Source: a bacterium
GTDB taxonomy: Bacteria > Cyanobacteriota > Vampirovibrionia > Gastranaerophilales > JBAXKC01
DNA length: 64,000 bases
Direction: 5' to 3'
NCBI GenBank assembly: GCA_037137535.1
Contig: JBAXKC010000001.1
Location: 280,584-344,583 of the forward strand
Shown here piece after piece: positions 135-52,570 of the stretch. Under the pieces are notes generated by a model. That model saw nothing but the letters and a program-made list of their open reading frames with translations, did no database searches and had not been told where the DNA came from. How positions within the stretch are numbered: the first letter of the stretch is position 1; each line of letters starts with the position of its first letter. A program made the position numbers and the translations under genes.

Positions 135-422
135 CTAGTAGGAATTTGAATAGCAAGATTTACATAATACAGGTCTGTCGCTTGATGGTTTGAAAGGAAC
201 TTGAGCAGCTCCACCACAATCGGAACATACAGCATCGTACATTCTTTTTTGTTGGAATCCACCAGCACTTCTTCCGCCACCTTTTCTAGCGCTACGGCAA
301 GGCTTACATCTTTTTGGTTGGTTTGTTAAACCTTTTGATTCGTAAAATTCTTGCTCGCTTACTGTGAAATCAAATTCACAACCACAGTCTGCACATTGTA
401 AAGTAATGTCTTGATACGCCAT
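135..422 (-). CDS. Small zinc-ribbon protein (zf-trcl-like + CxxC-x17-CxxC domain)
   Basis: CADC...CKPC and CSDC-x17-CKSC motifs; F-T-x-x-EQ-x-FY-x-x-KG signature; AGGAGG SD upstream. Confidence 0.9.
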   Translation of the reverse strand: MAYQDITLQCADCGCEFDFTVSEQEFYESKGLTNQPKRCKPCRSARKGGGRSAGGFQQKRMYDAVCSDCGGAAQVPFKPSSDRPVLCKSCYSNSY

Positions 423-814: not shown

Positions 815-2473
815 TTAAAATTTAAATTTTAATCCTGCTTGAGCCGAATAATCACCGTTGTCTAAAACATATGATAAGTTAGCATATGGATTTAATCCGT
901 TATCTTTATTTCCTGATAATTCAAGATCAAATTGTGGTGTTACGTTGCGTCCTGACTCAAGAGGTATATTTACAGCTACTCCCGCATTAACATTCACATC
1001 AGGAATACTTAAGTTAGGATATTTTGCTCTGTCCTCAACAGGAATACCAAAAGCATTATTATTGTAGAAAGCTCCTGCTCTTACATAAGGGGTATTACTA
1101 AATCCTGTTGTTTGACCTATAACTCCAAGATCTTTTGAAATTTGAGAACCATCATTAAATTTAGCAACTAAAGAACCTGATGTTTGAGTGTTATAAGGGT
1201 TATTTAAATTCAAACCAAGCCCTAATCCTAATCCATATCTTTCATTAGTAGTCGGATTGTTTTTATCGTCAAAAAGTTTATTTCCAATGTTTAAATTTGC
1301 TTGTAAAACTGCTTCACCTCTTGCAGGAGTTGTATCCACAGATAAACCTGTTCCAATTGAGCCATCATTATTTAGCTTTTCAGTTCTAAATGAAATAGCA
1401 GGATCTGTTGGCAATAATTGATTATTTGTTGAAAGTCCTAATCCTGTATTAACTATAATTCCTTCTTTTGTTTTTGGATCAACAGGTGCGTTTGTTAGGG
1501 TGCTTGCGACAGGAGAACCAAGCCTTTTATTTGAAGTAACTAAACTTATTTGAGGCTGTTCCGGAGGAGTAGGTTTATCTTCGGGCTTTGTAGGCTCTAC
1601 CGGTTTAGGATCTACGGGTTTTGTTGCGTCTGGAGTATCATAAGAACTGCTTAAGAGTTCCATTACGTTTTGATTTGTAATTTCTTTTCCATTTACATTT
1701 CCACAAAAATTCCAATGTCCAAAAGCTTCATCTTTTAATACTTGGACAGAATCACCATTTGGCATAAAGATAGCATACATTGTTTCATTATCTCTTTTTA
1801 TTCTTGCTCCGTTAGGGAAAGATATTTCTTGCCCCGGCTGAATATCTTTACCATCAACCTTTAATGTATTTGAGCCTTCATTTATTTGAATATTATTTCC
1901 GCCGATTTTTATATTGCCGCTTGTTATGCCTTCATTTCCATTTGGCAATTTTCTTACGTTTACATCGATTGAATAATCTTTATCGCCTAAGTTTTCAGCA
2001 TTAGCATCATGGTTTACAAAATTTGTAGGCTTATTTAGAGTTGATACATCTGAAACTAGACCTGTTGCATCATTATTTCCTTTTACGGTCAAAAGATTTA
2101 AATTTTCATATAATCCTTTTGGAATATCAACAGTAGTCTTGTCATGAGTTGCATTAGGGTCGCTACCTGATCCCCAGAAGAAACCCGGTAACTTTGTTGT
2201 TGTAGGCTGAGAGACTGACTTTATATCTGTACTAAAATGTCTTGCTGCATTTGCAGCTTCTACTGTTTTTTCAAAATCCGCAAAACCACTTTTAAAATCA
2301 GTGCTATTCATCAAGTTCTCTAAAGAATTTGCAGGAATATTAATACCATCCTTTTTCCAGATACTTGCCTGATCAGCCACAGCCTTTTTCTCAGCTCCGG
2401 GAACAAGTCCGGTGTTTAAAGTTACAGGTGCCTTACCTACGAGCTGACTAGCCTGATTAATGAATTCTCCCAT
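815..2473 (-). CDS. Orphan protein: beta-rich (VWD-like) domain, Pro-rich linker, putative C-terminal beta-barrel
   Basis: Long ORF; likely start MGEFINQ at 2473 (AAGGAG SD) rather than 2551; PVDPKPVEPTKPEDKPTPPEQP linker; alternating amphipathic strands ending YSAQAGLKFKF. Confidence 0.7.
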   Translation of the reverse strand: MGEFINQASQLVGKAPVTLNTGLVPGAEKKAVADQASIWKKDGINIPANSLENLMNSTDFKSGFADFEKTVEAANAARHFSTDIKSVSQPTTTKLPGFFWGSGSDPNATHDKTTVDIPKGLYENLNLLTVKGNNDATGLVSDVSTLNKPTNFVNHDANAENLGDKDYSIDVNVRKLPNGNEGITSGNIKIGGNNIQINEGSNTLKVDGKDIQPGQEISFPNGARIKRDNETMYAIFMPNGDSVQVLKDEAFGHWNFCGNVNGKEITNQNVMELLSSSYDTPDATKPVDPKPVEPTKPEDKPTPPEQPQISLVTSNKRLGSPVASTLTNAPVDPKTKEGIIVNTGLGLSTNNQLLPTDPAISFRTEKLNNDGSIGTGLSVDTTPARGEAVLQANLNIGNKLFDDKNNPTTNERYGLGLGLGLNLNNPYNTQTSGSLVAKFNDGSQISKDLGVIGQTTGFSNTPYVRAGAFYNNNAFGIPVEDRAKYPNLSIPDVNVNAGVAVNIPLESGRNVTPQFDLELSGNKDNGLNPYANLSYVLDNGDYSAQAGLKFKF

Positions 2474-2894
2474 CTTAATACTCCTTTTATAAATTTTACA
2501 TTTTAAATATTTCGTATATATTTCGTATATATTTATAAAAACATTTCGCATGAAAAAATTGCCTGTTAAAAGCCAATATTCATGTTTTTACCATAATTTT
2601 TATAAGAAAATACTACTAAACACTTTAATTACAGACCATTTGACAAATCTAAAGTTTTGTAACATTTGCTTGCGAATTATTAATTTTTTAGTCAAATAAA
2701 GAAATACCTCTTTATTGTTTGTTTTTTTATAATAAAGCATTAAAATTTAATTAAAATCAAACAATTAATTAAGTTTTAATCTATTTCAATAACCTTAGAG
2801 ATTAAAATTCAGTTTAAAAACAAAAAAATAATGCTCTATCAATTAAGAACATATTTTATTCCCCAAAATATATTTATTTTATTTAATCTAAGAA

Positions 2895-2923
2895 TTGACC
2901 AATGACAATAAATTCTCTATAAT
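2895..2923 (+). promoter_or_regulatory. Sigma70 promoter of the pilin/tail-collar operon
   Basis: TTGACC(2895-2900)-N17-TATAAT(2918-2923). Confidence 0.7.
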
Positions 2924-3039: not shown

Positions 3040-3924
3040 TTGAAAATTAAAAATAAAAAATTATATTTTAAGACTGGCTTAACTCTTGTAGAGTCTTTAT
3101 TTGTTATGGTAATAATGAGTACAGTTTTAATATCCAGTATTCCTATTTTTGCCAATAAAAAAATACTTAGAACAGACACTCCAAATATTGGAATTGTGGC
3201 AATTTGGGCAAACCCCGGAGCCATTCCTTCAAACTTTCTTGAATGTAACGGACAAGCATATAACGTAGCTGACTATCCTGATTTATTCAACATTATTGGA
3301 ACGTCCTACGGTGGAGCAGGCTCAACTTTTAATGTCCCAAACTTACAGGGAAGAACTGCAATAGGAGCAGGAACTGGAGCTGGACTTACAAATAAAGTAT
3401 ATCAAACAACAGTAGGCTCTGAGGAAGAAAGTCTTACATTAGCTCAACTTCCAAACCATGTTCATATCTTTAACGACCCTGGACACAAACACTGGGACTC
3501 AGGACATGCTCATGGAACAAGCGACCCTGGACACAAACACTGGGACTACGGACATTCTCACACTTTATGGGATGGCTGGCACAGTCATTATTATAGAGAT
3601 GTTTATTATTCTGAGTTTGGCTCAACTCCTGTCCCATGGGACATAGGAACAAATGCCAGAAGTGATTATGACAATAAAGGTCTTGAAATTCGCAGAAATA
3701 CAAACTGGACCGGCTCGAATATCGGAATATATAATGGTTATGCAAATGTATCCTATCAAAGTAGCAATCTTGCCGCTTCTACTAATAACGGTAATGCTTC
3801 CATTCAATCAGCTCTAAGCAATGTAACCGTACCTGTAAGCGGTGGAAGTGGAACTGCAACAGGAAATCCTCATGAAAATATGCTTCCTTTTAGAGCTTTA
3901 AGATATATTATTAGAGCAAAATAA
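3040..3924 (+). CDS. Prepilin N-terminus + phage tail-collar/His-rich tail fibre protein (paralog 1)
   Basis: G|LTLVE..P22 prepilin motif; collar motif IPSNFLECNGQ..YPDLF..IG..YG..FNVPNLQGR; six HxH; C-terminal HENMLPFRALRYIIRAK. Confidence 0.88.
   Translation: MKIKNKKLYFKTGLTLVESLFVMVIMSTVLISSIPIFANKKILRTDTPNIGIVAIWANPGAIPSNFLECNGQAYNVADYPDLFNIIGTSYGGAGSTFNVPNLQGRTAIGAGTGAGLTNKVYQTTVGSEEESLTLAQLPNHVHIFNDPGHKHWDSGHAHGTSDPGHKHWDYGHSHTLWDGWHSHYYRDVYYSEFGSTPVPWDIGTNARSDYDNKGLEIRRNTNWTGSNIGIYNGYANVSYQSSNLAASTNNGNASIQSALSNVTVPVSGGSGTATGNPHENMLPFRALRYIIRAK
3474..3547 (+). repeat. 26-bp perfect intragenic direct repeat (48-nt period)
   Basis: cgaccctggacacaaacactgggact at 3474-3499 and 3522-3547 (DPGHKHWD twice). 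Confidence 0.9.
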
Positions 3925-3965
3925 TAACTGATTAATAATTACGTTTCATAAGAAAAGAGGCTGGA

Positions 3966-4943
3966 TTGACAAGAAATCTTAATACTAAAAAATCACTTAA
4001 ATTTCCAAGAAATGGTTTAACTATTTCAGAAGTATTAGTTGTTATGGTTTTATTTGGTGTTATTGCTGTTTCTTCTATACCTGCTTTTACTTCTAATGAA
4101 ACTCAAAACAGAGATTTAATAGCAAGTATTGGAAGTATTATGCTATGGGCAGGTAATGGAAATCCTCCGCCTAATTTTGTTGAATGTAATGGACAATCAC
4201 TCAACAAAGCTGATTATCCACTATTATTTGGTGTTATCGGAAATACCTACGGTTCTACAGCAACAAAATTCAACGTTCCTGACATAAGAGGCAGAGCCGT
4301 AATAGGGGCAGGACAGGGAACAGACCCAAGTCCCTATTCAGGAGTAAGCCCAAACCTGACTCTTAGAAATTTTAAAGATATAGGCGGAACTGAAACTGTC
4401 ACTCTTACAGCCGCTGATTTGCCTAATCATGCTCATGGAGTAACAGATCCCGGACATACTCATTCAGATGCGGGGCATGCCCATTCGGTTGCAGACTATG
4501 GACATTCTCATGTTGATTGGGGGCATGTTCACTCAGTATGGGATGGCGGACATTCTCATTACTATGATGATATTTATTATGCAGAAAGTATGGGTTATGC
4601 TAAATGGATATCAGGTGGTGGAGCAAATCCACATGGATATAATCACCCAAGCCCTAACGGACCTTTTGTTGGTAATGGACAAGGAGATTGGACAGACTTT
4701 GACAATGGCGGACATGATATGGGACGTTGGACAAATGCTTCACCTTCGAATTTAGCTCTTTATCCAGGCTATGCAAACCTTACCTATAATGGAACAAATG
4801 TAACCTTTGGGACAGGCTATGCTAATCTTACCTCTAATTCGGCAAACCTCACAATAGTTCCCAGCGGAGGAAGTAATCCGGTTACTCCGCATAATAATTT
4901 GTCAGCTGCTCTTGTATTAAAATATGTAATTAAAGCCCGATAA
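3966..4943 (+). CDS. Prepilin N-terminus + phage tail-collar/His-rich tail fibre protein (paralog 2)
   Basis: G|LTISE..P22; PPNFVECNGQ..YPLLF..IG..YG..FNVPDIRGR; six HxH; ends LKYVIKAR. Confidence 0.88.
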   Translation: MTRNLNTKKSLKFPRNGLTISEVLVVMVLFGVIAVSSIPAFTSNETQNRDLIASIGSIMLWAGNGNPPPNFVECNGQSLNKADYPLLFGVIGNTYGSTATKFNVPDIRGRAVIGAGQGTDPSPYSGVSPNLTLRNFKDIGGTETVTLTAADLPNHAHGVTDPGHTHSDAGHAHSVADYGHSHVDWGHVHSVWDGGHSHYYDDIYYAESMGYAKWISGGGANPHGYNHPSPNGPFVGNGQGDWTDFDNGGHDMGRWTNASPSNLALYPGYANLTYNGTNVTFGTGYANLTSNSANLTIVPSGGSNPVTPHNNLSAALVLKYVIKAR

Positions 4944-4973
4944 AACATAATACGCTTATAGAAAGAGGACAGG

Positions 4974-5864
4974 ATGTTAAATTCTTTAAAAATTAAAAAT
5001 AAGAATAAAAGATTTGGACTATCTCTTACAGAAGCGTTAGTTGTTTTAATGGTTGCAGGTGTTGCAGTTGCTGCCTCTATGCCAACAATGTCGGTAAAGA
5101 CATTACTTAAAACTAATTCAGATGTAAGTATAGGTGCTATTGTAATATGGGCAAACAATGGAGCTATTCCTGCTAATTACCTTGAATGTAACGGCCAAAC
5201 CGTAAACAAAGCAGATTATATAAACTTATACAGTATTATTAGCGGTACTTATGGACAAACGGCAACTCAATTCAATGTTCCCGATTTAAGAGGCAGGACT
5301 GTTATTGGAATGGGAAAAATAAGTGCCTTGAGCAAACAACGTAATTTTAATGATGTGGGTGGTAAAGAAAAAGTAAGACTTATTGATACAAATTTACCTG
5401 CTCATTCCCATATAGTTAACGACCCGGGTCATACTCATGCAGACCTCGGGCATACTCATCCTGTTTATGATCCGGGGCATAAACACTGGGATTATGGTCA
5501 TAGCCATGGAGTATGGGATGGTGGACATAGCCATGAATATGGCGATATATATTTTTCAGAATCATGGGGCTGGGTTCCGACACCTGATGGTTTTGGACAC
5601 TGTGCTAAAAGCGATAATGACAACTATGGTTTTCAAATGGGACGCTATACTGATCTAGCCACAAGTAATATTGGTGTTTATCCTGGTAATGCAAATTTCA
5701 CAACAGAACATACAGGTGTTTCAGCTGCTACAGGTACGGCAAATCTTGGCAATTCAGTCACAGGTGTTAACTTAAACGCACCTGCAACAGGTGGCGACGA
5801 TAATAATCTTCATGAAAATATGCCGCCGTTTTACACATTGAGATATATCATTAGAGCAAGATAA
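4974..5864 (+). CDS. Prepilin N-terminus + phage tail-collar/His-rich tail fibre protein (paralog 3)
   Basis: G|LSLTE..P22; IPANYLECNGQ..FNVPDLRGR; six HxH; ends HENMPPFYTLRYIIRAR. Confidence 0.88.
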   Translation: MLNSLKIKNKNKRFGLSLTEALVVLMVAGVAVAASMPTMSVKTLLKTNSDVSIGAIVIWANNGAIPANYLECNGQTVNKADYINLYSIISGTYGQTATQFNVPDLRGRTVIGMGKISALSKQRNFNDVGGKEKVRLIDTNLPAHSHIVNDPGHTHADLGHTHPVYDPGHKHWDYGHSHGVWDGGHSHEYGDIYFSESWGWVPTPDGFGHCAKSDNDNYGFQMGRYTDLATSNIGVYPGNANFTTEHTGVSAATGTANLGNSVTGVNLNAPATGGDDNNLHENMPPFYTLRYIIRAR

Positions 5865-5888
5865 CTAATTTTTTATATTAAATATATT

Positions 5889-5925
5889 AAAAGAGCTGTT
5901 AAACTTAAAAATTAACAGCTCTTTT
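5889..5925. terminator. Bidirectional terminator
   Basis: aaaagagctgttaa / ttaacagctctttt 14-bp inverted repeat between convergent genes. Confidence 0.85.
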
Positions 5926-5949
5926 TGATAAATAATATAATAATGCCTT

Positions 5950-6543
5950 TTAATGCTTTTCCAACTCATTTTTTATAGCCTTTAACGTTGTAGGCAAGGT
6001 GTTGTTAAGCCCATAAGAACGTAAAAAAGACGGTAAATAGAAACCAAGATCAATATACATTGTATAGGTTAATATAGAATTACCCTGATACGGTTCGATT
6101 TCCCAAGATCCGTATAATTCTTTAAAAGAACCTTCAGTTCTTTTATATATAATTGTTTTAGTTCTTTCATTTTCATCTAAATGCAATGTATATTGAAATA
6201 CGGGTAAAGCAGGAGCTGTTTTAAGTGAAACCTGCACCTTTTGGAAATTATGTCCTTTTGCAAGAATTTTATTTTGACGAACCCCAGGGACTATTCGCCC
6301 CATTCTTTCCTGATTTTCAAGTAAAGCCCATACTTTTTCAGGTGATGAATGAATTAATACTTTTCCTTCAGTTCCTTTTAAATCACCCTTGCAATTAAAA
6401 AATCTTAAAGCGACTTCACCCTTTTGCAATCTTGTAATATTTTCTATTGCCATTGCTTTATTTGGAAATTGCATTGAGAAAATCAAGGATGGGATAATAA
6501 TAAGACTCATAAGTCCGTAATGTAGTTTGAGTTTTGTATTCAT
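5950..6543 (-). CDS. SRPBCC (polyketide cyclase/START-like) family protein with N-terminal signal/TM
   Basis: IHSSPEKVWALL...GSFKELYGSWEIEP pattern. Confidence 0.75.
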   Translation of the reverse strand: MNTKLKLHYGLMSLIIIPSLIFSMQFPNKAMAIENITRLQKGEVALRFFNCKGDLKGTEGKVLIHSSPEKVWALLENQERMGRIVPGVRQNKILAKGHNFQKVQVSLKTAPALPVFQYTLHLDENERTKTIIYKRTEGSFKELYGSWEIEPYQGNSILTYTMYIDLGFYLPSFLRSYGLNNTLPTTLKAIKNELEKH

Positions 6544-15826: not shown

Positions 15827-15850
15827 TAGTATGGTTTTAAACCCTACCTA
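15827..15850. repeat. REP-like palindrome, degenerate copy 3
   Basis: tagtatggttttaaaccctaccta; reverse complement gtagggtttaaaaccatacta resembles copy 1. Confidence 0.45.
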
Positions 15851-16990
15851 TGGGCTCTTTATGTTTAATAAAACTAAATTCTTAATATAATTATCTTGTG
15901 ACTTTTCAGCATATTTAACAGATTTTTCATCTATTTTTGCACCAGAATTTATAAGACATTCAACAATTTCTGCTTGCTTTGTTTTTATAGCATAAGTTAA
16001 AGCAGTCTTCCCCCAATATATTACATTAGGATCAGCACCTTTATTAATTAATAATTCTGCTATTTCAGACTGTTTATTAATAATAGCCCAAATTAATGGA
16101 TAAGTCCCCACCGATTTTTGATTAGGATTAGCACCGGCCTCAATTAACATTTCTGCTATTTCGGATTGTTTATTCTTAATTGCTAGGGTTAAAAAATATG
16201 GCCCCCAATCTTGTTGATTAGGATTAGCGCCTGCTTTTAATAAAACATCAACCATTCTAAGATTATTTGCTTTTATTGCCATTCCAAGTAATGAATTAAA
16301 ACCATAAGTGTCATTTGGATTCATTCCTGTTTTCATATAAGCTTCAACTAAATCAACATCATTATTTTGAACACAATTAACAATATCTATGTCTTTATAT
16401 TTGGCATGCTGATAATCGACGAGACTTTGATAATATTTATCATCTTTTACAATATTAGCAGCAGAGGACTTGATTGTTTTCAAATGATCATTAACTAAAA
16501 ACTGAAACGCCACAAGAGGATTTATGTATATCTTTGATAAAAATAATACTCTTGTCGTATCTTTGGCACCGATTAAATAATTAGACGGAAACGGCTGAAA
16601 TAATTTATCAAGAGCAATAACCTTTCCTTCTAGATAAGCAAATGATACCGCGTTTATAAGCAAATCATTTGGGCTATTATAAAACATAAGAGTTGATGTT
16701 GTCACCTTATTTATTCTATCAGGAGCCGTCATTTCTTTTAATATAATAGGCTTTCCAGTTTTGTTTGTTATTAGATACTCATATATAGCAGCCTTCTTAT
16801 CTTGAATCATTCCGAAGCCAGGCTCATATTTATTGCTAGTAATTTTTATGTTATTGTCTTCAAATTCAAGTACAGTATTACCAATTGCTGTATTTGATAT
16901 AGGTTTTTCATATGACTGAAAGCTACTTTGAGCGAAAGATGGGCTAGATAATACAACAACAGCAATAAAGACTAAAAATAATTTTTTCAT
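15848..16990 (-). CDS. Exported ankyrin-repeat protein
   Basis: Signal peptide (SFA|Q); about five repeats of L..AI.......V..LI..GA(N/D)PN. Confidence 0.88.
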   Translation of the reverse strand: MKKLFLVFIAVVVLSSPSFAQSSFQSYEKPISNTAIGNTVLEFEDNNIKITSNKYEPGFGMIQDKKAAIYEYLITNKTGKPIILKEMTAPDRINKVTTSTLMFYNSPNDLLINAVSFAYLEGKVIALDKLFQPFPSNYLIGAKDTTRVLFLSKIYINPLVAFQFLVNDHLKTIKSSAANIVKDDKYYQSLVDYQHAKYKDIDIVNCVQNNDVDLVEAYMKTGMNPNDTYGFNSLLGMAIKANNLRMVDVLLKAGANPNQQDWGPYFLTLAIKNKQSEIAEMLIEAGANPNQKSVGTYPLIWAIINKQSEIAELLINKGADPNVIYWGKTALTYAIKTKQAEIVECLINSGAKIDEKSVKYAEKSQDNYIKNLVLLNIKSP

Positions 16991-24532: not shown

Positions 24533-25567
24533 TTAAGTTGAGAATAACAAAAGAGAATAAGTTTCTATTATTGCTTTACCAAAAAACATTGCTATTATTG
24601 CCCCAAAAACAAGAGCCGGCCCGAATGGCAAAAATGTAAAACTTTGACGTTTTTTTGCTCCTTCAATAATGACTATTGCACCAATACCCGCAAGGAATAA
24701 AGCCACTAACATTGTTAATAACGCACCGATAGTAGTATTTGAAATACCCAGTAATTTACTTAAAGAAGGAATAGCAAGAGAAAATAACATTAACGAGGTA
24801 TAAGCAATTGATTTATAATCTTTATCCTTATACATATTAATTACAATGATTGGAATACCGACTATAACCTGAAAAATCAAGCTCAATGCAACAATTAAAA
24901 ATAATTGTTTAACTCCAAACCAAGCACCAAGTCCTGCCGCTAAAACAGTATCACCTTCGCCAAATGCTCTTTCTCCGACAAATATTTTTCCCAGTCTGGA
25001 AATAACTTCAAATAAAGCCGCTCCGACTATTGCTCCTAAAACTGAATAAAGAAAGGCTTCTGGCATAAATCCAAATACTGGAACACCAATAGATCCAGAA
25101 CCATACCCTCCGATGTCAAAGAAACTATAAAGCAAACCCAATGGGATTAATGGAATTGATACAGCATCATAAATCAACTGTTCTTTTAAATCGGTAACTG
25201 TAATTACAATTAATCCTGCGGTAAGAATCATTAAGAATAAGGTTTTTAATGACATTCCAAAACTGAGGTATAAAAGTATAAATAATAAACAGGAAGCACC
25301 TTCAACCAATGGATACTGTATACTAATTTTTGCTTTACAATGCCTGCATTTAGCTTTCAAAAGAATATAGCTTAATATTGGGACATTATCATACCATGCA
25401 ATTTTAGTATGACATTTAGGACATTCTGATCTTGGCCTCGCCATGCTTTCACCTGATAAAAGCCTTAATGCTACAACATTTAAGAAACTTCCGATTATTA
25501 AACCTAAAAAACCGGCAACAAAAACGAAATAGGATTGGCTAAAAATATTAAAAACTTCTTCTGTCAA
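24533..25567 (-). CDS. pilD: Prepilin peptidase / N-methyltransferase (A24A)
   Basis: GSFLNVVALRL, CPKC...WYDNVPILSY...CRHC, catalytic Asp motifs TDLKEQLI and GEGD, LPFGPAL. Confidence 0.93.
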   Translation of the reverse strand: MTEEVFNIFSQSYFVFVAGFLGLIIGSFLNVVALRLLSGESMARPRSECPKCHTKIAWYDNVPILSYILLKAKCRHCKAKISIQYPLVEGASCLLFILLYLSFGMSLKTLFLMILTAGLIVITVTDLKEQLIYDAVSIPLIPLGLLYSFFDIGGYGSGSIGVPVFGFMPEAFLYSVLGAIVGAALFEVISRLGKIFVGERAFGEGDTVLAAGLGAWFGVKQLFLIVALSLIFQVIVGIPIIVINMYKDKDYKSIAYTSLMLFSLAIPSLSKLLGISNTTIGALLTMLVALFLAGIGAIVIIEGAKKRQSFTFLPFGPALVFGAIIAMFFGKAIIETYSLLLFST

Positions 25568-43616: not shown

Positions 43617-44534
43617 ATGCAAATCAATAGTTTTGAAACGCCAATTTTATTTATCATTTTTAATAATCCCGAAACAACAGAAAAAGTTTTTAATGAAATT
43701 AAAAAAATAAAACCAAAACAATTATTCTTATATTCTGACGGAGCTAGAACAACTGTTGAAGGCGAAAATGAAAAATGCAATAAATGCAGAGAGATCGTTA
43801 AAAATATTGATTGGGATTGCGATTTTAAAATAAATTTCAGAGAAGATAATGTTGGTCCCAGAATAGCAGTAAGTTCAGCAATTAACTGGTTCTTCGATAA
43901 TGTTGAAGAAGGTATAGTTTTAGAACATGATTGCTTACCGAATGCTTCATTTTTCATCTTTTGCAGGGAAATGTTGAACCATTATCGCAATGACACAAGA
44001 ATAATGCATATAAGCGGAAATAATTTTAAAAACGGCAAAATATACGGAGACGGAAGTTATTATTTCTCAAGAATTGCTCATATCTGGGGTTTTGCCACAT
44101 GGAAAAGAGCATGGAAACTCTATGACGTTGAGATGAAAGCTTATGAATCCTTTAAAAACAGTAAACAGATCGACAATATTTTTGACGGATATTTTGTAAA
44201 AAAACATATAATCAAATTACTCGATAAAATTGCTTTCAGAAACTCTGCAACGTGGGATCATCAATGGAACTTTGCACTGTTTTCCAATAACGGACTTTCT
44301 ATCAACCCTAATGTAAATCTAATTAAAAACATAGGATTCGGCGAAGGTGCTGTGCATTGTACCGACACGAGCAGTAAATTTGCAGATATGAAAACCGAAG
44401 AAATAAACGAAATAATCCATCCCTCTTTTATCCTTGCAAATAAAAAAGCTGATAAAGAAACTCTGAGTTATAATTTTGATTTTGGGCTTTGGACAAGAAT
44501 TAAGCGAGAATTTACAAGAACTTTTAAATTTTAA
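43617..44534 (+). CDS. Nucleotide-diphospho-sugar transferase (GT-A fold)
   Basis: [44 protein letters not shown]. Confidence 0.85.
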
Positions 44535-46620
44535 ACTCTGCTATCTGCGTTTCTAAATCTTCAGCTAAACAGTTAAGTGCAATTGAACTGCCCGAAATAT
44601 GACCAATACTTGCAGATTGCTCTTCCATTACATTTGATATCTCTTCTGCCATAGCCGCAACTTCTTGAGTTATGGAAGAAATATTTTCAACAATTTTTAC
44701 AACCTCATCAGAATGCAATGAAAGATTTTTTATTTCAATTGATACATGTTCTACATGATCTCTTGCAAGACAAGAATCCGTTTCTATAAATTTAAGAGCA
44801 GTTTTTGTTTTTTCAATTACATTTAAACTTTCTTCAACTTCAGTAACATTTTTATTTATAGTTAGAACCGCAAGATTAGTACTTGATTGAATAGCTTTAA
44901 TCATTGAGGTAACTTTATCCGTGGCTTCAGCTGATTGAACGGCAAGTTTTTTAACTTCCTCTGCTACAACTGCAAAACCTTTTCCGTTTTCTCCGGCTCT
45001 TGCCGCTTCGATAGAAGCATTAAGGGCAAGTAAATTTGTCTGTCCTGCTATACTTCTTATTAAATCAATTATTGAACTAATCTCCATACTCAAATTATTT
45101 AATTCCTCAATAGTTGAAGAAAGGGCAAGTGTTGAAGTTTTAAGATTTTTTGAATTATAAACTGCTGTTTCAGTCTGAATATTGCCTTCTTTTGAATTAT
45201 TTTCAGTATTTTGAGCTATTTTTACAGCATTTCCAAGATCAAGAGAAATTTCCTTAATTAATTCATTTATTTTATTTATATTATTTAAACTTTCATTAAC
45301 GCCACATGCCTGTTCCTGTGAACCTGAAGAAAGGACTGAAAGACTTGAAGCTACTTGCTGTGCACTTTCAGCCGTCTGAGTCGTTGATGATTTCATCAAT
45401 GAAGAAGCTGTTTTCAGATCGACAACAGTTGCATTAATACTTGAAATAAGACCTTTTAAATTGGTTGTAAACTTTTTAAAAGCTCTATTCACTTCGCCTA
45501 TTTCACTTTTGCTCTCATCATCAGGCAACACAACTGTAAAATCATTATTAGCAATTTGTAAAATATTTTTAGTAAGAACCTCTAAAGGAGTTGCTATATA
45601 ACTTCCAATAACAAAAGCAACAAATACAGTAATTATCATACCTATAAGAGTAATAATAGATAAAAGAATAATGGTATCAGTAGTTTCTTGATAAACTTCT
45701 GCCTTAGGAACTGTAACAAATAAGGTAAAGCCATTATTCAAATGAGTAAAAGAAGCTATTTTATCAACACCTTTATATTTATATTCGACAATACCAGTTT
45801 TATTATTTGCAACTTTCTCTGTTAATTTCTTAAATGATCCATTATATATTGTAGAAAGATGTTGATTTTTAGGAAATTCTTTCCCCGATAAAATATTAAA
45901 ATCTTTATTTAAAAGAAAAGCTGAGCCTGTTTTATACACTTTTATGCTATTAATTATTTCCTGTAAACCTTTAAATGAAATATCCATTCCTGCAACACCG
46001 ATAAAACGATTATTTTTATACAAGGCTTTTGAATATGTAATCATTTCAATATTGTTTACAGTAGGATCTTTATACAAATCACTCCAAACACCGCTTTTAA
46101 GCTCTTTAGGCTGATAAAACCATTTTGCAACTTTATGATCATCAAATATCTTCAAAAGATCCATTGGCTGAGCAACAAATATTCCTTTTTGCTTTATAAG
46201 CCATGAGCCATAACTTATGTTTGATTGTTTTCTTGTAGAGTCAGGATCAAAATAAAAATAAGAATCCATATTAATATCAGCATTAGATGCTATCAAATGC
46301 ATCATTTTTGCAATATTTTTTTCATATTTATCTAGATAAGCAGCATTATTAAGATTATTAAAATCAACGGAACCTTCTACTATATAATTTAACGTATCAA
46401 CCGATTTTTCAAGTTTTTCCATTAATAAATCCATGCTTTTTGCAGAATTTTGGGATTTTAATAATAATTCTTTTTGAGCATTAGATGAAGACATCTCATA
46501 GCTTTTATATATTGCTATTCCGCTAATTGTTACAGATAAAGTGAAGGAAATAAACACCATTGCAAATATTATTTTAGATTTAATAGTATTTAAATTAATT
46601 TTCATACTAAGCAGATCCAT
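44524..46620 (-). CDS. Methyl-accepting chemotaxis protein (Cache sensor + HAMP)
   Basis: [34 protein letters not shown]. Confidence 0.96.
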
Positions 46621-46706
46621 TTTTATTTTTATCCAGAGAAAAACTACCTACAAATTAAGCTCTAATGAATTATACTCTATAAATTAGAATAATTAAAGAT
46701 TTACAC

Positions 46707-46746
46707 AAAAAAATAAGGCAAATACCTTAGTATCGCCTCATTTTTT
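46707..46746 (-). terminator. Probable terminator after tRNA
   Basis: aaaaaataaggc..gcctcatttttt imperfect hairpin. Confidence 0.55.
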
Positions 46747-46818
46747 GGCATAGACTGGACTCGAACCAGTGACCGCGCGGGTATGAGCCACGTGCTCTAC
46801 CAACTGAGCTACTATGCC
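46746..46818 (-). tRNA. tRNA with CAU anticodon (probably elongator Met)
   Basis: GGCATAGTAGCTCAGTTGGTAGAGCA CGTGG CT-CAT-AC CCGCG CGGTC ACTGGTTCGAGTCCAGT CTATGCC A; G1-C72 paired so not fMet; Ile2 not excluded. Confidence 0.92.
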
Positions 46819-46885
46819 ATATTCAGTTTGTTTAATTATTATTAATCAAACCAGAAAAAATATCAAGAAAAATAATCAATTAATT

Positions 46886-47731
46886 TCAAACTTCTTTCTG
46901 ATAAAAGAAAGGTGTTTTCATATTAAACCCAATGGCTCTATGGTTATTTATACGCTCAGTAGAACCTATAAACAGAACTCCTCCCGGTTTAAGGGCATCA
47001 TAAAATTCTTTATATAGCTTGTCTTTAGCTTCATCAGTAAAATAAATAACTACATTTCTACACAAAATTAAATCAAAATCTTTTTCAAACTTGCTGTTTA
47101 AAAGATCTCTTTTTTCAAATTTAACTTTCTGTCTTAACCTTGATTCTACTTGCTGCTTATCATTGCCGACAGAAGTAAAATATTTTTTATAATCTGCCCC
47201 TATTGAACCTACTTCCATTTCTGAATAAATACCATTCTTGGCTTTTTCTAAAATAGTTTTATCAAAGTCTGAAGCAATAAGCTCACAGTCATTTAATATT
47301 TTCATTTTATCAAACATCATAGAAAGACTATATATTTCAGCACCAATAGAACAGCCTGCCGACCAGACTTTTAATTTACGAGAATTTTTCAATAACTCAG
47401 GAAGATATAGAGTTTCTAATTCTTGAAATTTTTCAGGATTTCTAAAAAATTCAGTAACGTTAATCGTTAACATATTTAAAAATTCTTCAAGTTTTTTAGA
47501 ATCTGTTTTCAGAACATTAAAATAATCATTAAGATTATCCATTCCACATCTATTCATAAGAGAAACTATTCTTCGCTCCATTTGAGTATTTTTATAATTA
47601 GTCAAGTCTAAATTTATAAGAGGAGCTATATTTTTTTTAAACGCATTAAATTCCTCAGCAGGTGGGATTTTTCCTGTCGGGACTTGAGTGAAAGCAGATA
47701 AGTCAAAGTTTTTTAATTTATTTTTATCCAT
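46886..47731 (-). CDS. cheR: Chemotaxis methyltransferase CheR
   Basis: LTINVTEFFR, WSAGCSIG.E.YS, FDLILCRNVVIYF. Confidence 0.96.
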   Translation of the reverse strand: MDKNKLKNFDLSAFTQVPTGKIPPAEEFNAFKKNIAPLINLDLTNYKNTQMERRIVSLMNRCGMDNLNDYFNVLKTDSKKLEEFLNMLTINVTEFFRNPEKFQELETLYLPELLKNSRKLKVWSAGCSIGAEIYSLSMMFDKMKILNDCELIASDFDKTILEKAKNGIYSEMEVGSIGADYKKYFTSVGNDKQQVESRLRQKVKFEKRDLLNSKFEKDFDLILCRNVVIYFTDEAKDKLYKEFYDALKPGGVLFIGSTERINNHRAIGFNMKTPFFYQKEV

Positions 47732-47736
47732 CTATT

Positions 47737-48780
47737 TTACCTATAAATTGCTTCTACAATAGCATTTGCCACATTGTGAATCGGCTCTATACGGTCTGCA
47801 TGCCCCGCATCAATTACGCACTTCGGCATTCCGTAAATTATACATGTTGATTGATCTTCAGCTATACAAAAGCCTCCTAATTTTTTAACTGCTTCTGATC
47901 CTTTTGAACCATCTTTACCCATACCTGTCAATATTACGCAAATAAGGTCTTGCTTATAAACCTTTGCAGCTGAACCTAAAGTAATATCAACAGCAGGTCT
48001 TACACCCCATACGGAAGGCTCTTGGTTAAGTGAAATTTTCCCGTTAGGCTCAACATTCATATGATAATTACCCGGAGCCAGCAACACCTTGCCAACTTCA
48101 AGCATATCACCGTCTTTAGCTTCTTTTACAGTCAATTCACTTATTTTATCAAGTCTTTGAGCAAACATTTCTGTAAATTTAGGTGGCATATGCTGAACCA
48201 CTAAAAATCTTGCCGGTAAATCTTTAGGAAGAAAAGGAATCACTTCCTTTAAAGCCTGAGGACCTCCTGTCGATGAGCCAATAACTACTGTCTTAAGGTT
48301 ATTTATACTTGATATTGTTCTTTTTGCAGGTATATTAACTAATGCCTTTGGAGTTGAAACACTTCCCATAATAGGTTTTTTAGCCATTGAAGCAGATTTT
48401 ACTTTATTTATTATATCATTTTTAAGATGTTTAAAATCTTCAGGATTATCGGGCTTAGTAATAAAATCGACAGCTCCAAGCTCAAGAGCCTTTATTGTTA
48501 CTTCAGCTCCTCTTTTTGTAAGACTGCTAATCATAACGGTAGGGGTAGGTTTTATCTTATTTAATTCTTTTAAGGTTTCAAGTCCATTCATAAATGGCAT
48601 TTCAACATCAAGAGTTATAACATCAGGTTTAAGAGCTTCAACTTGAGTTAAAGCCATTTTACCGTTTATTGCAATGCCGACCACTTCAATATCAGGATGA
48701 GAATTAAGAATATCAGACAGTATTCTTCTTATTATCGTTGAATCATCAACAACCAGAACTTTTAATTTTTTATCTAGCAT
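47737..48780 (-). CDS. cheB: Chemotaxis methylesterase CheB
   Basis: REC domain, GSSTGGP, VQHMP, LTGMGKDG. Confidence 0.97.
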   Translation of the reverse strand: MLDKKLKVLVVDDSTIIRRILSDILNSHPDIEVVGIAINGKMALTQVEALKPDVITLDVEMPFMNGLETLKELNKIKPTPTVMISSLTKRGAEVTIKALELGAVDFITKPDNPEDFKHLKNDIINKVKSASMAKKPIMGSVSTPKALVNIPAKRTISSINNLKTVVIGSSTGGPQALKEVIPFLPKDLPARFLVVQHMPPKFTEMFAQRLDKISELTVKEAKDGDMLEVGKVLLAPGNYHMNVEPNGKISLNQEPSVWGVRPAVDITLGSAAKVYKQDLICVILTGMGKDGSKGSEAVKKLGGFCIAEDQSTCIIYGMPKCVIDAGHADRIEPIHNVANAIVEAIYR

Positions 48781-48787
48781 GCTTTTA

Positions 48788-49960
48788 CTACATTCCCTTT
48801 AACCTATTATCAGGACTTACAATACTTGTTATTCTTAAACCGAAGTTATCTTCAATAACTACTACTTCACCTTTTGCGATTAGTTTTCCATTTGCAAATA
48901 ATTCTACCGGCTCACCTGCAATTTTATCCAACTCAATAACAGAACCTCTTGTTAATTCAAGAACCTTTTTAATTGGTAACTCTGTTCTTCCCAGTTCAAC
49001 AGTAAGTTTTAACTTAACATCCATGAGAAGTTTAAGATTTTTATTAGATTCTCCGTAAGGATCATTCATATCGTCAAAAGAAGCAAACTGAACAGGTTGA
49101 ACAGTAACCGGTCTTACAGGCTCTTGCGGAGGCATTGGAGGTGGCGGTATAAATTGAGGAGGAGGAGAAGAGTATTGCTGTTGCTGATACTGTGGCTGTT
49201 GATATTGTGGTTGTTGCTGAGGAGGCGGAGCCGACTGCGGTGACGGTTGTGGTGCAGCAGCAGGTTGGGGCATATCAGGAACATCATTCATTGTTTTTGT
49301 CATTTTAGCTACTAAATTTTGACAAGCAGGTAATGACATAAGCTGAACTAATTCACTATCAATTAAATCCCCTACTTTAAGCCTAAAACATATTGCAATG
49401 ATAGGAATTCCAAGTATATCGCTTGAAAAATCAAGATCGGTTCCGGGAGTATGCAACTTAACAATAGGAGGAGTTATATCAATAGACATGTTCAACATAC
49501 TTGAAAGAGTGGTGCAGCCTGAGCCAACCATTTGGTTCATAGCTTCACCGACAGCACTTAATTGAAGCTCACCTACTTCAGAGTTAGTGATCATTCCGTC
49601 ACCACCCATCATTAAATCAGCTATAACAGCAGTATCAATTGTTTTAAGCGCAAAAAGGGTTGTACCTTCAAGGCCTATACGGTATTGTATTTCAACTGCG
49701 ACTTGCTCTTCCTGACTGTCAAACATTTCATTTATAAGATGAAATTCTTTTACTTTGGGAGTGGTAATATCAACTTTTTGTCCTAATAACATAGACAATG
49801 TGGTTGCTGCCGTCCCCATGAAGATATTGCCGACTTCTCCAATTACGTCAGCTTCCATCTCACTAAGGTACTCAAAACCCATTGATGATGCATTAGCCTC
49901 GGGAGATCCTACCCCCGAAAGCAGTCTGTCTATATCTTCCTGTGACATTTTGTCGCTCAT
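48788..49960 (-). CDS. fliY: Flagellar switch phosphatase FliY (CheC-like + FliN domain)
   Basis: Two E-x-x-N motifs (EVGN, EAMN), P/Q linker, FliN C-terminus GEVVVIEDNFGLRI. Confidence 0.9.
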   Translation of the reverse strand: MSDKMSQEDIDRLLSGVGSPEANASSMGFEYLSEMEADVIGEVGNIFMGTAATTLSMLLGQKVDITTPKVKEFHLINEMFDSQEEQVAVEIQYRIGLEGTTLFALKTIDTAVIADLMMGGDGMITNSEVGELQLSAVGEAMNQMVGSGCTTLSSMLNMSIDITPPIVKLHTPGTDLDFSSDILGIPIIAICFRLKVGDLIDSELVQLMSLPACQNLVAKMTKTMNDVPDMPQPAAAPQPSPQSAPPPQQQPQYQQPQYQQQQYSSPPPQFIPPPPMPPQEPVRPVTVQPVQFASFDDMNDPYGESNKNLKLLMDVKLKLTVELGRTELPIKKVLELTRGSVIELDKIAGEPVELFANGKLIAKGEVVVIEDNFGLRITSIVSPDNRLKGM

Positions 49961-49994
49961 ACCGTTACAACTCCCGCTTATAATTAGCCTAATT

Positions 49995-51053: not shown

Positions 51054-51064
51054 GAATTATCTCC

Positions 51065-51712
51065 TTACTGGATTATAAAAGTACCGAAACTTACTCTTAA
51101 AACTTCTCTTTCTCCGCCAAAAACAGCATTTATGCCTTCTTTGATTTCATCTTTGGCTTTTTCTTTACCTTCAGCACTGGATAATTCCTCTGCCGCTTTT
51201 GAAGAAAGAACTGTAATTATACTATCTCTGATAGCAGGTTTAAATTGATCCATTTCTTTAGCAAATGCTTCCATAGGACTCGGGCCTTTTTTCTCGCCTT
51301 CACCACCGCCAGCTGCTTCTTCTTTTGGATCAGTCGGCAATTTAGAAAGCTCTACCGCCACATCTACTTTAAGATATCTTTTTGTCTTTGTATCACTAAG
51401 ATTTAATATAAATTCGCCAAGATCAAGGATTAAACCTCGTTCAACCTGATCTCCTTCTCCTGCTGCCGCTGCATCTGTGCCATCAGCACTTGCGGCTGAG
51501 TCACCACCGGCAATTTTACTTGCGATAGTCCCAACACTGCTTTGAACTATAAAATAATTACTTGCCACAAATACTATGCAAATTACTAATGTTACTATCG
51601 CATTTGTAATAATAAATTTTGTTCCGTTCAATTCCTCTGTGTCCTTTCCGTTATCACTTTGCGTGCCTTCGGCTTTTGGCTTTACACCTCTCGGTTGTGT
51701 CGATTTTACCAT
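51065..51712 (-). CDS. fliL: Flagellar basal body protein FliL
   Basis: Single TM; FILNLSD...RYLKV, IRDSIITVLSSK, ends FIIQ. Confidence 0.9.
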   Translation of the reverse strand: MVKSTQPRGVKPKAEGTQSDNGKDTEELNGTKFIITNAIVTLVICIVFVASNYFIVQSSVGTIASKIAGGDSAASADGTDAAAAGEGDQVERGLILDLGEFILNLSDTKTKRYLKVDVAVELSKLPTDPKEEAAGGGEGEKKGPSPMEAFAKEMDQFKPAIRDSIITVLSSKAAEELSSAEGKEKAKDEIKEGINAVFGGEREVLRVSFGTFIIQ

Positions 51713-51729
51713 ATCATCCGCTCCCTAAG

Positions 51730-52569: not shown

Positions 52570-52570
52570 A

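What the first reader, a model, noticed from the sequence alone, without database searches (positions are those of the whole stretch)
3457..5534. Six HxH motifs in identical register in all three paralogs suggest a metal-stapled, possibly heterotrimeric needle
Seen: each paralog has a 44-aa block (3457-3588, 4428-4559, 5403-5534) with six HxH motifs separated by exactly 6,4,6,4,6 residues, although the intervening residues differ and other regions carry indels. Known: in T4-type fibre needles one HxH from each of three chains octahedrally binds one metal ion. Inference: three genes, three chains and a strict register fit a 1:1:1 heterotrimer whose three pilin helices enter the pilus tip together, analogous to minor-pilin tip complexes. 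Three separate homotrimers is the alternative.
Basis: partly seen in the sequence, partly recalled or inferred. Interest (0 to 1): 0.72.

Follow-up and report, generated by a model that had tools for sequence, protein, structure and literature searches.

The report
Pilin-anchored phage-fibre needle gene triplet
Three neighbouring genes of a freshwater bacterium each join a pilus-type membrane anchor to the histidine-rich, metal-binding tip of a phage tail fibre, a rare combination that probably puts a phage-style gripping tip on the cell's own pili.

Summary
Genes A (3040-3924), B (3966-4943) and C (4974-5864) each hold six HxH motifs with spacers 6,4,6,4,6 at the stated coordinates.

Each protein has a prepilin-type leader and hydrophobic helix (G-1, E+5, P+22). 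A phage tail-collar domain (PF07484, E about 1e-17) follows, then the HxH array, a variable distal part and a C-terminal strand.

The closest solved relatives are homotrimeric phage fibre tips: Anabaena phage A-1(L) gp34 (8KEC), T4 gp12 and T4 gp37. This supports a metal-stapled trimeric needle by homology.

The fusion to a pilin anchor is rare. I found only one other single-unit example (P0139) and a few larger pilin-fused forms carrying three collar units in one chain.

Heterotrimer or three homotrimers remains undecided. For a heterotrimer:
- Small collar genes elsewhere sit as tandem triplets in 66 of 80 loci.
- Three-unit single chains are common.
- A virophage triplet was shown to form a 1:1:1 heterotrimer (PMC12724248).
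- The HxH register is otherwise labile.

Against: A/B/C arose by their own triplication inside a clade whose solved members are homotrimers. My estimate is heterotrimer about 0.4, homotrimers about 0.35.

The parts
2895..2923 (+). Promoter-like site (TTGACC, 17 nt, TATAAT) upstream of gene A
   Evidence: 11 of 12 consensus matches. No terminator-like site lies between the three genes. This is a consensus match only.
3040..3924 (+). Gene A, 294 aa: prepilin-like leader and helix, tail-collar domain, six-HxH array, variable distal part, C-terminal strand
3040..3144 (+). A residues 1-35: K-rich leader, G13(-1) | L(+1), E(+5), S(+14), P(+22)
   Evidence: TIGR02532 scores 15.5 bits against a cut-off of 16.3.
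3190..3357 (+). A tail-collar domain (residues 51-106)
   Evidence: PF07484, E 2.3e-17
3457..3588 (+). A HxH array (six motifs, spacers 6,4,6,4,6)
3966..4943 (+). Gene B, 325 aa: same plan, with a 10-residue insert after the collar and 15+4 extra residues in the distal part
3966..4082 (+). B residues 1-39: leader, G17(-1) | L(+1), E(+5), G(+14), P(+22)
   Evidence: TIGR02532 scores 20.9 bits against a cut-off of 16.3. Pfam N_methyl scores 19.8 against 21.2.
4131..4298 (+). B tail-collar domain (residues 56-111)
   Evidence: PF07484, E 2.5e-18
4428..4559 (+). B HxH array (six motifs, spacers 6,4,6,4,6)
4974..5864 (+). Gene C, 296 aa: same plan
   Evidence: AF2 monomer: helix 18-35; collar 50-140 and C-terminal 280-296 at pLDDT above 90.
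4974..5084 (+). C residues 1-37: leader, G15(-1) | L(+1), E(+5), G(+14), P(+22)
   Evidence: TIGR02532 scores 13.2 bits against a cut-off of 16.3.
5133..5303 (+). C tail-collar domain (residues 54-110)
   Evidence: PF07484, E 3.3e-17
5403..5534 (+). C HxH array (six motifs, spacers 6,4,6,4,6)
24533..25567 (-). Prepilin peptidase (A24), the enzyme expected to cut the three leaders. It is not adjacent and its link to A/B/C is inferred.
   Evidence: PF06750 E 1.5e-32, PF01478 E 8.2e-14

Best explanation
A, B and C are minimal 'modular pilins'. Each joins a prepilin-type leader and the hydrophobic first ~22 residues of a pilin helix, through a ~13-15 residue linker, to a receptor-binding tip module taken from a phage tail fibre.

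Proposed working, with shown and inferred steps marked:
1. The three genes are made together from one promoter (inferred: 41- and 30-nt spacers, one promoter-like site, no terminator).
2. The prepilin peptidase cuts after the conserved Gly (inferred).
3. Three chains join through their collar domains. Their six HxH layers stack along the axis, and each layer binds one metal ion with six His (inferred from homology to T4 gp37, T4 gp12 and A-1(L) gp34).
4. The chain turns at the variable distal part and returns, so its last strand packs on the collar (predicted).
5. The three short pilin helices enter a type IV filament as its first turn. The needle then sits at the pilus tip and its variable distal part binds a surface, probably a glycan or envelope component of another cell (inferred by analogy with modular pilins and the CofB/TcpB tip trimers).

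I slightly favour one chain each of A, B and C per needle (1:1:1 heterotrimer) over three homotrimers.
For: Module identity:
- PF07484 matches all three at E about 1e-17, and PHROG tail-fibre/collar families match at E down to 7e-24.
- A profile of the family matches 8KEC (A-1(L) long tail fibre gp34, a trimer per PMC10966104, passages read) over collar, HxH array and C-terminal strand, E 2.2e-21.
- Foldseek on the AF2 model hits 8KEC (5e-9), T4 gp12 (1OCY, 4e-7) and T4 gp37 tip 2XGF (4e-5).

Pilin anchor:
- G-1, E+5 and P+22 are present in A, B, C and in the only close relative P0139.
- The genome's own 13 pilin-like genes show the same landmarks (read by eye).
- TIGR02532 scores above its cut-off in B and P0139.
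- The genome holds a prepilin peptidase, five T2SSE ATPases and three secretins.

Precedent for pilin fusions:
- P0191 and P0255 are whole pilins followed by three collar/HxH units.
- Dataset S1 of PMC8179133 lists IPR012902-IPR003961-IPR011083 x3 and IPR012902-IPR007001-IPR011083, one protein each.

For a heterotrimer:
- There are exactly three collar genes in the genome, all here.
- Relatives of the small collar protein P0328 lie as exactly three tandem genes in 66 of 80 loci from many phyla (9 one, 4 two, 1 six). Within triplets the median identity is 42%, and HxH counts are (1,1,1) in 62 of 66.
- 119 of 147 top representative hits carry three collar units in one chain, and 93 of these have HxH counts (1,1,1). 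This ranking favours multi-unit proteins.
- Three consecutive collar/gp37-like proteins of virophage DSLV2 co-purify as a 1:1:1 heterotrimer (PMC12724248, abstract and passages read).
- Only 23 of 129 pairs of other single-unit homologs with collars 50-70% identical share an HxH register. A/B/C (53-61% identical) share it in 3 of 3 pairs, and P0139 differs.
- There is no sign of gene conversion.

Expression hint: contigs of a metatranscriptome library identical to the window cover all three genes (3078-5833).
Against: Against a heterotrimer:
- On a tree, A, B, C and P0139 form their own group (support 91, FastTree). This group lies inside a starred clade of single-unit, multi-HxH proteins, apart from the small triplet family. 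The triplication is therefore independent.
- The solved members nearest to A/B/C are homotrimers (8KEC, T4 gp12, T4 gp37).
- P0139 has no detected paralog. This is weak evidence, because the word-based search also missed A/B/C.
- Tandem threes are common among ordinary pilin genes of this genome (contigs C10, C14, C6), so the number three is not special here.
- The distal part is the most diverged and carries indels (B has about 19 extra residues), as expected if the paralogs had diverged to bind different receptors.
- The comparison set for register lability is small (35 proteins), not independent, and probably rich in mosaic phage genes.

Against pilus display:
- The amphipathic half of the pilin helix and the globular pilin domain are missing.
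- The genes are not in a pilus operon.
- A and C score below the TIGR02532 cut-off.

Metal binding, trimerisation and leader cleavage were not tested by any tool here.
Confidence: 0.4

Rival explanations
1. The modules and the pilus display are as in the best explanation, but A, B and C each form their own homotrimer. They are three alternative tip adhesins with different distal binding parts. The shared HxH register is inherited and kept because the fold, or a required needle length, demands it.
For: - The nearest solved relatives are homotrimers (PMC10966104 passages).
- A/B/C arose by a separate triplication within the single-unit clade.
- The distal part is the most variable region and has indels.
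- The CofB and TcpB minor pilins are homotrimers at pilus tips (PMC6048534 and PMC8179133, passages read).
- Tandem threes of ordinary pilin genes occur elsewhere in this genome.
- The single-unit relative P0139 has no detected paralog.
Against: - The count is exactly three, and triplets or three-unit fusions recur in this family.
- A published case of three consecutive collar proteins forms a heterotrimer.
- The register is conserved through an old duplication although it is labile elsewhere (23 of 129 pairs).
- Co-expressed paralogs that descend from a homotrimer would be expected to mix unless their interfaces had diverged (general knowledge, not tested).
Confidence: 0.35
2. The N-terminal segment is only a signal-anchor or a secretion signal. 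The trimeric needles stay on the inner membrane or are released by a type II secretion-like route, and are never part of a pilus.
For: - Only the first ~22 hydrophobic residues of a pilin are present, followed directly by a short linker.
- The genes are not next to pilus assembly genes.
- A and C score below the TIGR02532 cut-off.
Against: - G-1, E+5 and P+22 are kept in A, B, C and P0139, while the rest of the segment is only 27-46% identical. An ordinary membrane anchor has no need for this pattern.
- All weak family hits of the N-termini are to pilins or pseudopilins.
- Pilin-fused collar proteins with a whole pilin module exist (P0191, P0255).
Confidence: 0.15
3. The genes are leftovers of a prophage tail-fibre module with no cellular role.
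For: The best family matches are phage tail-fibre families, and G+C is a little higher here (0.38 against about 0.30).
Against: - No phage gene is found among 58 ORFs of the 64-kb window.
- All three frames are intact after a long divergence under purifying selection.
- A pilin-type N-terminus has no place in a virion fibre.
- RNA-library contigs cover the genes (weak).
Confidence: 0.03

Closest known systems
Phage fibre tips with a tail-collar domain and an HxH metal array: Anabaena myophage A-1(L) long tail fibre gp34 (PDB 8KEC), T4 gp12 (1OCY, 5IV5), T4 gp37 needle (2XGF)
   Same: Collar domain, HxH array directly after it, variable distal part, and a C-terminal strand that returns to the collar. 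HxH motifs of three chains binding iron octahedrally in gp37 is described in PMC11705849 (passages read), which cites the original structure paper that I did not read.
   Different: Those proteins are parts of virions and are homotrimers encoded by one gene. Here there are three paralogous chromosomal genes with a pilin-type N-terminus, no phage genes nearby, and a 6,4,6,4,6 spacing not seen in the other 378 family proteins collected.
Modular type IV pilins (Raynaud et al. 2021, PMC8179133), including two catalogued pilin plus tail-collar architectures
   Same: [quoted passage not shown] Dataset S1 lists IPR012902-IPR003961-IPR011083 x3 and IPR012902-IPR007001-IPR011083. P0191 and P0255 found here fit the first of these.
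   Different: Modular pilins as defined there have a whole pilin module. A/B/C and P0139 keep only the leader and the hydrophobic half of the helix. The catalogued collar cases are single table rows without description. None is a triplet of single-unit genes.
CofB (ETEC CFA/III) and TcpB (Vibrio cholerae TCP) trimeric tip minor pilins
   Same: Three pilin N-termini are tied together by a trimeric C-terminal beta-rich domain through flexible linkers. The trimer sits at the pilus tip and acts as assembly initiator and binding platform (PMC6048534, passages read).
   Different: There is no sequence relation. CofB and TcpB are homotrimers with full pilin domains and are encoded in type IVb pilus operons. 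Their trimer domain is an H-type lectin fold, not a collar/HxH needle.
Tripartite tail proteins of virophage DSLV2 (PMC12724248), and the tandem triplets of small 'microcystin-dependent protein'-type collar genes in bacteria
   Same: Three consecutive paralogous collar-domain genes. DSLV2's three proteins co-purify as a 1:1:1 heterotrimer forming ~16-nm fibres. Bacterial triplets are found in 66 of 80 loci, with median 42% identity within a triplet, close to A/B/C (43-48%).
   Different: Those proteins are about 175-200 aa with one HxH or none reported and have no pilin N-terminus. A/B/C belong to another clade and triplicated independently. Whether the bacterial triplets form heterotrimers is itself untested.
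GspI-GspJ-GspK pseudopilus tip heterotrimer
   Same: Three different pilin-like chains form the filament tip (mentioned in PMC8179133, passage read).
   Different: These are unrelated globular pseudopilins. They have no trimeric fibre, no metal array and no threefold-like symmetry.

Membership tests
Phage tail-collar domain proteins (Pfam PF07484) | Match to the Collar profile above the curated cut-off | tested here: met
   63.2, 66.2 and 62.6 bits against a cut-off of 24.
gp37/gp12/gp34-type fibre tips | HxH array after the collar that aligns with the array of a solved fibre | tested here: met
   the profile aligns positions 49-283 to 8KEC residues 159-378, HxH motifs included, E 2.2e-21.
gp37/gp12/gp34-type fibre tips | The chain returns so that the C-terminal strand packs on the collar | tested here: met
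   in the AF2 monomer of C, residues 280-296 have pLDDT 94-97 and form strand 290-294 next to the collar. This is a prediction only. The conserved C-terminal motif is shared with homologs.
gp37/gp12/gp34-type fibre tips | Trimer with one metal ion per HxH layer | not testable with these tools
   The one complex prediction gave no verdict (see Tried and rejected). Metal content needs a bench assay.
gp37/gp12/gp34-type fibre tips | Part of a phage tail, encoded among virion genes | tested here: not met
   none of the other ORFs scanned in the window matches a phage family. The neighbours are housekeeping, transport, flagellar and chemotaxis genes.
Type IV pilins / prepilin-type N-terminal domain (TIGR02532, PF07963) | Leader ending in Gly, Glu at +5, then a hydrophobic stretch | tested here: met
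   G-1, E+5 and P+22 in A, B and C. TIGR02532 scores B 20.9 (above 16.3), A 15.5 and C 13.2 (both below).
Type IV pilins / modular pilins | Complete pilin module (full alpha-1 helix plus beta-sheet head) | tested here: not met
   only 13-15 residues separate P+22 from the collar domain. The predicted helix ends at residue 35 of C.
Type IV pilins / modular pilins | Prepilin peptidase and filament assembly machinery in the genome | tested here: met
   A24 peptidase at 24533-25567; five T2SSE ATPases; three secretins.
Type IV pilins / modular pilins | Cleavage, N-methylation and incorporation into a filament | not testable with these tools
   Needs biochemistry or microscopy.
Heterotrimeric collar fibres (DSLV2 type) | Three consecutive paralogous collar genes | tested here: met
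   three tandem genes, and they are the only collar genes in the genome.
Heterotrimeric collar fibres (DSLV2 type) | Common descent with known triplets (position-specific orthologs) | tested here: not met
   A, B and C group with each other and with P0139, not with positions 1, 2 and 3 of the small triplets.
Heterotrimeric collar fibres (DSLV2 type) | 1:1:1 co-assembly | not testable with these tools
   Needs co-expression and pull-down, or paired multimer predictions.

The most novel reading that the evidence does not exclude
A, B and C are an obligate 1:1:1 heterotrimer. A phage receptor-binding needle held by six metal ions has been domesticated as the cap of a type IV pilus. The three chains each supply one minimal pilin helix, and together these helices form the first turn of the filament. 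The needle would therefore both seed the pilus and give it a phage-like grip on another cell's surface, in a non-photosynthetic relative of cyanobacteria whose kin include predators and epibionts.
Probability: 0.25. Interest if true: 0.8.

Novelty: new variant of a known kind. Interest (0 to 1): 0.6.

Why it matters
Phage tail-fibre tips are among the best understood devices for recognising bacterial surfaces, and type IV pili are the main extendable and retractable filaments of bacteria. A pilin anchor carrying a fibre tip would mean that cells have taken a phage's recognition device for their own use.

The three-gene form is a compact system for two open questions. The first is how trimeric tip complexes start a pilus. 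The second is how homotrimeric fibres evolve into heterotrimers and then into one-chain pseudo-trimers. All three stages now seem to exist in one family: single genes, gene triplets, and three-unit fusions.

The ectodomains are small (about 250 aa) and could be expressed and analysed directly.

Tried and rejected
- **Complex prediction of the A, B and C ectodomains with four Fe.** No verdict: score 0.28 against a mark of 0.32, and the controls were not run. It counts neither for nor against binding.
- **AF2 monomer of C.** The needle and distal part (residues about 160-270) have pLDDT below 50, so no needle geometry could be read.
- **AF2 of the pilin plus three-unit protein P0191 with a 99-row alignment.** The three collars have pLDDT above 90 and pTM is 0.59. 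The long needle parts (347-411, 564-637, 788-867) are below 50. This neither confirms nor denies a one-chain needle, and no coordinates were available to measure His geometry.
- **Fetching the DNA around P0139 and P0191.** The search for related loci found no relative in genome contigs or metagenome contigs for P0139, nor in genome contigs for P0191. The tool that looks up contigs by exact protein is closed. P0139's copy number at its locus therefore rests only on a word-based protein search, which also missed A/B/C.
- **Scans with alignments A8 and A2.** I used the single protein P0328 and the closer alignment A3 instead. A3 gave 14 loci, none with a pilin-fused multi-HxH protein.
- **Genome searches for full-length relatives.** None was found in 40 same-order genomes or in 400 genomes of the phylum.
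- **RNA-library contigs.** X2 and X5 do not cover the flanks 2500-2995 and 5848-6200, and none bridges the B-C spacer. Missing cover is no evidence. DNA carry-over in the RNA library cannot be excluded, and no further read-laying run was available to lay a silent control stretch.
- **Charge complementarity between the three HxH blocks.** Looked for by eye and not seen: all three are acidic.
- **The Trp before the last HxH of A, where B and C have Gly.** Considered as a possible knob-into-hole sign. Dropped because that position should point outward.
- **Literature searches for a described pilin plus tail-collar/HxH protein.** (11 papers listed; 4 listed) showed no such description in titles or abstracts. 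Only the two rows of Dataset S1 in PMC8179133 were found.
- **Earlier notes near this place.** None.
Full report
**1.

Three tandem + strand ORFs lie at 3040-3924 (A, 294 aa), 3966-4943 (B, 325 aa) and 4974-5864 (C, 296 aa). They are 43-48% identical to each other. A script found six HxH motifs in each, with spacers 6,4,6,4,6. The residues map exactly to 3457-3588, 4428-4559 and 5403-5534, and the three DNA blocks align without a gap.

The block is the most conserved part of the proteins (59-73% identity). Indels lie just before it and after it; B has a 10-residue and a 15+4-residue insert. The agreement is not due to recent gene conversion. Codons of identical residues agree 12/25, 12/30 and 17/29 times inside the block, against 55/101, 56/102 and 57/109 outside it.

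**2. Anatomy of each protein**

- *Leader and pilin-type helix.* A K-rich leader of 13-17 residues ends in Gly. It is followed by L-(S/T)-(L/I)-x-E and about 17 more hydrophobic residues. G-1, E+5 and P+22 are present in all three, and G+14 in B and C. E+5, G+14 and P+22 as marks of type IV pilins are recalled knowledge. The genome's own 13 pilin-like genes show the same pattern (read by eye).
- *Family scores for the N-termini.* TIGR02532 scores 20.9 bits in B (cut-off 16.3), 15.5 in A and 13.2 in C. All other weak hits of the N-terminal pieces, except one in B (PhrA_Strep, E 0.033), are to pilins or pseudopilins.
- *What is missing.* Only 13-15 residues separate P+22 from the next domain. 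The amphipathic half of the pilin helix and the pilin head are absent.
- *Tail-collar domain.* PF07484 matches at E about 1e-17.
- *HxH array, distal part and C-terminus.* After the array comes a variable distal part of about 90-115 residues. The conserved C-terminus is predicted to pack back on the collar: in the AF2 monomer of C, the collar and the last 17 residues have pLDDT above 90.

**3. Context**

The window is ordinary chromosome. None of the other ORFs scanned matches a phage family. A near-consensus promoter-like site lies at 2895-2923. The spacers between the genes are 41 and 30 nt, and there is no terminator-like site between them. The gene after C is convergent.

A prepilin peptidase lies at 24533-25567. 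The genome (2.9 Mb, 81 contigs, about 30% G+C) holds five T2SSE-type ATPases and three secretins. A, B and C are its only collar-domain genes.

The best match of a conserved neighbour protein (Tex) is a 'Candidatus Gastranaerophilales' MAG at 68% identity. This fits the make-up of the phylum sample. The organism is therefore probably a non-photosynthetic relative of cyanobacteria; this is an inference from one protein.

The DNA is held by freshwater and lake metagenome runs. Contigs of a metatranscriptome library from the probable source sample, identical to the window, cover all three genes (3078-5833). One contig runs from A across its stop and the spacer 23 nt into B. This is only a hint of expression.

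**4. Relatives**

The collar family is huge: 54,389 representatives at E up to 0.001. The pilin fusion is rare.
- 0 of 117 non-self near-length hits and 0 of 114 further hits have a pilin-type N-terminus.
- 3 of 147 top representatives have one.
- P0139 (251 aa) is a true relative over its whole length, pilin landmarks included. It is 37-43% identical to A/B/C and has a different HxH arrangement.
- P0191 (896 aa) and P0255 (712 aa) are whole pilins followed by three collar/HxH units in one chain. Their HxH counts per unit are 5,4,5 and 2,2,2.
- Two giant proteins (P0121, P0125) start with what looks like a truncated pilin helix (by eye).
- No full-length relative was found in 40 genomes of the same order, in 400 genomes of the phylum, or in a pattern scan of the species-representative genomes.
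- In print, Dataset S1 of Raynaud et al. 2021 (PMC8179133) lists two pilin plus tail-collar architectures, one protein each, without discussion. Searches for a description found none.

**5. What the module is**

A profile of the family aligns from the collar through the HxH array to the C-terminal strand of PDB 8KEC, E 2.2e-21. 8KEC is the long tail fibre gp34 of Anabaena myophage A-1(L), and that paper describes the fibres as gp34 trimers (PMC10966104, passages read).

Foldseek on the AF2 model ranks 8KEC first, then T4 gp12 and then the T4 gp37 needle 2XGF. PHROG hits are all tail-fibre or tail-collar families. That HxH motifs of three gp37 chains bind seven iron ions octahedrally is stated in PMC11705849 (passages read). 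I recall the original structure paper but did not read it here.

HxH arrays after the collar are common in the family. Spacers are almost always 6 or 4 (508 and 97 of 689 spacers of 0-15 residues) and arrays reach up to 8 motifs. 'Metal-stapled trimeric needle' is therefore the expected reading by homology. Metal binding and trimerisation were not tested.

**6. Heterotrimer or homotrimers**

*For a heterotrimer:*
- Relatives of a small collar protein (P0328, 183 aa, one HxH) lie as exactly three tandem same-strand genes in 66 of 80 loci from many phyla (9 one, 4 two, 1 six; 56 of the 67 loci of at least 6 kb).
- Within these triplets the median identity is 42% (range 31-91%), and HxH counts are (1,1,1) in 62 of 66.
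- Gene position in the triplet is clustered on a tree: 20-22 changes against about 56 in shuffles, with 0 of 500 shuffles as low. The 14 loci without exactly three units were left out.
- 119 of 147 top representatives carry three collar units in one chain, 93 of them with HxH counts (1,1,1). Matched multi-HxH sets occur in P0125 (4,4,4 and 3,3,3) and P0121. The ranking by summed score favours such proteins. Units within one chain are 44-71% identical, and the A/B/C ectodomains 47-50%.
- Three earlier notes of this scan describe the same one-chain triple modules in giant surface proteins of other genomes.
- Three consecutive collar/gp37-like proteins of virophage DSLV2 co-purify through a tag on one of them, run as about 55 kDa on native PAGE and form ~16-nm fibres (PMC12724248, abstract and passages read).
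- The HxH register is labile. Of 129 pairs of other single-unit homologs with collars 50-70% identical, 23 share a register. A/B/C (collars 53-61% identical) share it in 3 of 3 pairs, and P0139 (52-64% to them) does not.

*Against a heterotrimer:*
- A, B, C and P0139 form one group (support 91, FastTree) inside a starred clade of single-unit multi-HxH proteins, apart from the small triplets. The triplication is their own.
- The solved relatives are homotrimers.
- Ordinary pilin genes of this genome also come in tandem threes.
- The distal part has diverged most, as in receptor-binding proteins that have changed targets.
- The lability sample is small (35 proteins), its pairs are not independent, and phage genes are mosaic.
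- CofB and TcpB show that a homotrimer can sit at a pilus tip (PMC6048534 and PMC8179133, passages read).

I put the heterotrimer at about 0.4, three homotrimers at about 0.35, and other readings at the rest.

**7. How it most likely works**

The steps are inferred unless marked otherwise. One transcript yields three prepilin-like chains, and the A24 peptidase removes the leaders. Three chains join through the collars. Six HxH layers bind six metal ions along the axis. The chains turn in the variable distal part, which forms the binding surface, and return to the collar (this last point is predicted).

The three short hydrophobic helices, tied to the collar by 13-15 residue linkers, are taken up by a type IV filament machine as the first turn of a pilus. 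The needle then caps the filament. Because the pilin head is missing, a place in the filament body is unlikely.

**8. Novelty and verdict**

The parts are known: the tail-collar/HxH fibre tip, the prepilin N-terminus, and the idea of modular pilins and trimeric tip pilins. Three things are new here. A minimal pilin anchor sits directly on a six-layer HxH needle. It occurs as a triplet of diverged genes with a strictly shared register. And single genes, gene triplets and three-unit fusions all coexist in one family.

I file it as a new variant of a known kind, with interest 0.6.

Noticed in passing
L042-L121 (loci in public genomes of many phyla): Small 'microcystin-dependent protein'-type tail-collar genes (about 175-200 aa, one HxH each) lie as exactly three tandem same-strand paralogs in 66 of 80 loci. 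One locus has six. Gene position is clustered on a tree. This suggests a widespread family of cellular heterotrimers. I found no description of it beyond the virophage case.
   Followed up: partly
Proteins P0121-P0267 (public representatives): 119 of 147 top profile hits carry three collar units in one chain, mostly secreted proteins of 450-650 aa with one HxH per unit. They look like one-chain pseudo-trimers. No solved structure of this kind appeared in the PDB sequence search.
   Followed up: partly
window 815-2551 (-): A 578-aa ORF is transcribed divergently from gene A across a 488-nt AT-rich spacer. It has no Pfam, NCBIfam or PHROG match. It ends in ...KFKF, and its C-terminal half resembles outer-membrane beta-barrels only weakly (TM below 0.5). 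Any link to A-C is unknown.
   Followed up: partly
G000 contigs C10:3361-5307, C14:28574-32868, C6:69111-70654: Ordinary pilin-like genes of this genome also lie in tandem sets of three (plus two more on C14), with near-identical N-termini within a set.
   Followed up: no
window 15848-16990 (-): A 380-aa protein with ankyrin repeats. Such repeats are often seen in bacteria that live with eukaryotes.
   Followed up: no
window 44524-53365: A chemotaxis and flagellar motor cluster (MCP, CheR, CheB, FliY/FliN-like, FliM, FliL, MotB, MotA). The organism is probably motile as well as piliated.
   Followed up: no
window 4001-6000: G+C is 0.38 here against 0.25-0.33 in the neighbouring 2-kb bins. This may simply reflect the Gly/His/Asp/Pro-rich proteins.
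   Followed up: no
window 3157: One RNA-library contig (depth 2.35) lacks 2 bases inside gene A, while the DNA runs do not. At this depth it may be an assembly error.
   Followed up: no
window 135-422 (-): A small protein with two treble-clef zinc-finger domains (PF13451, PF23477).
   Followed up: no
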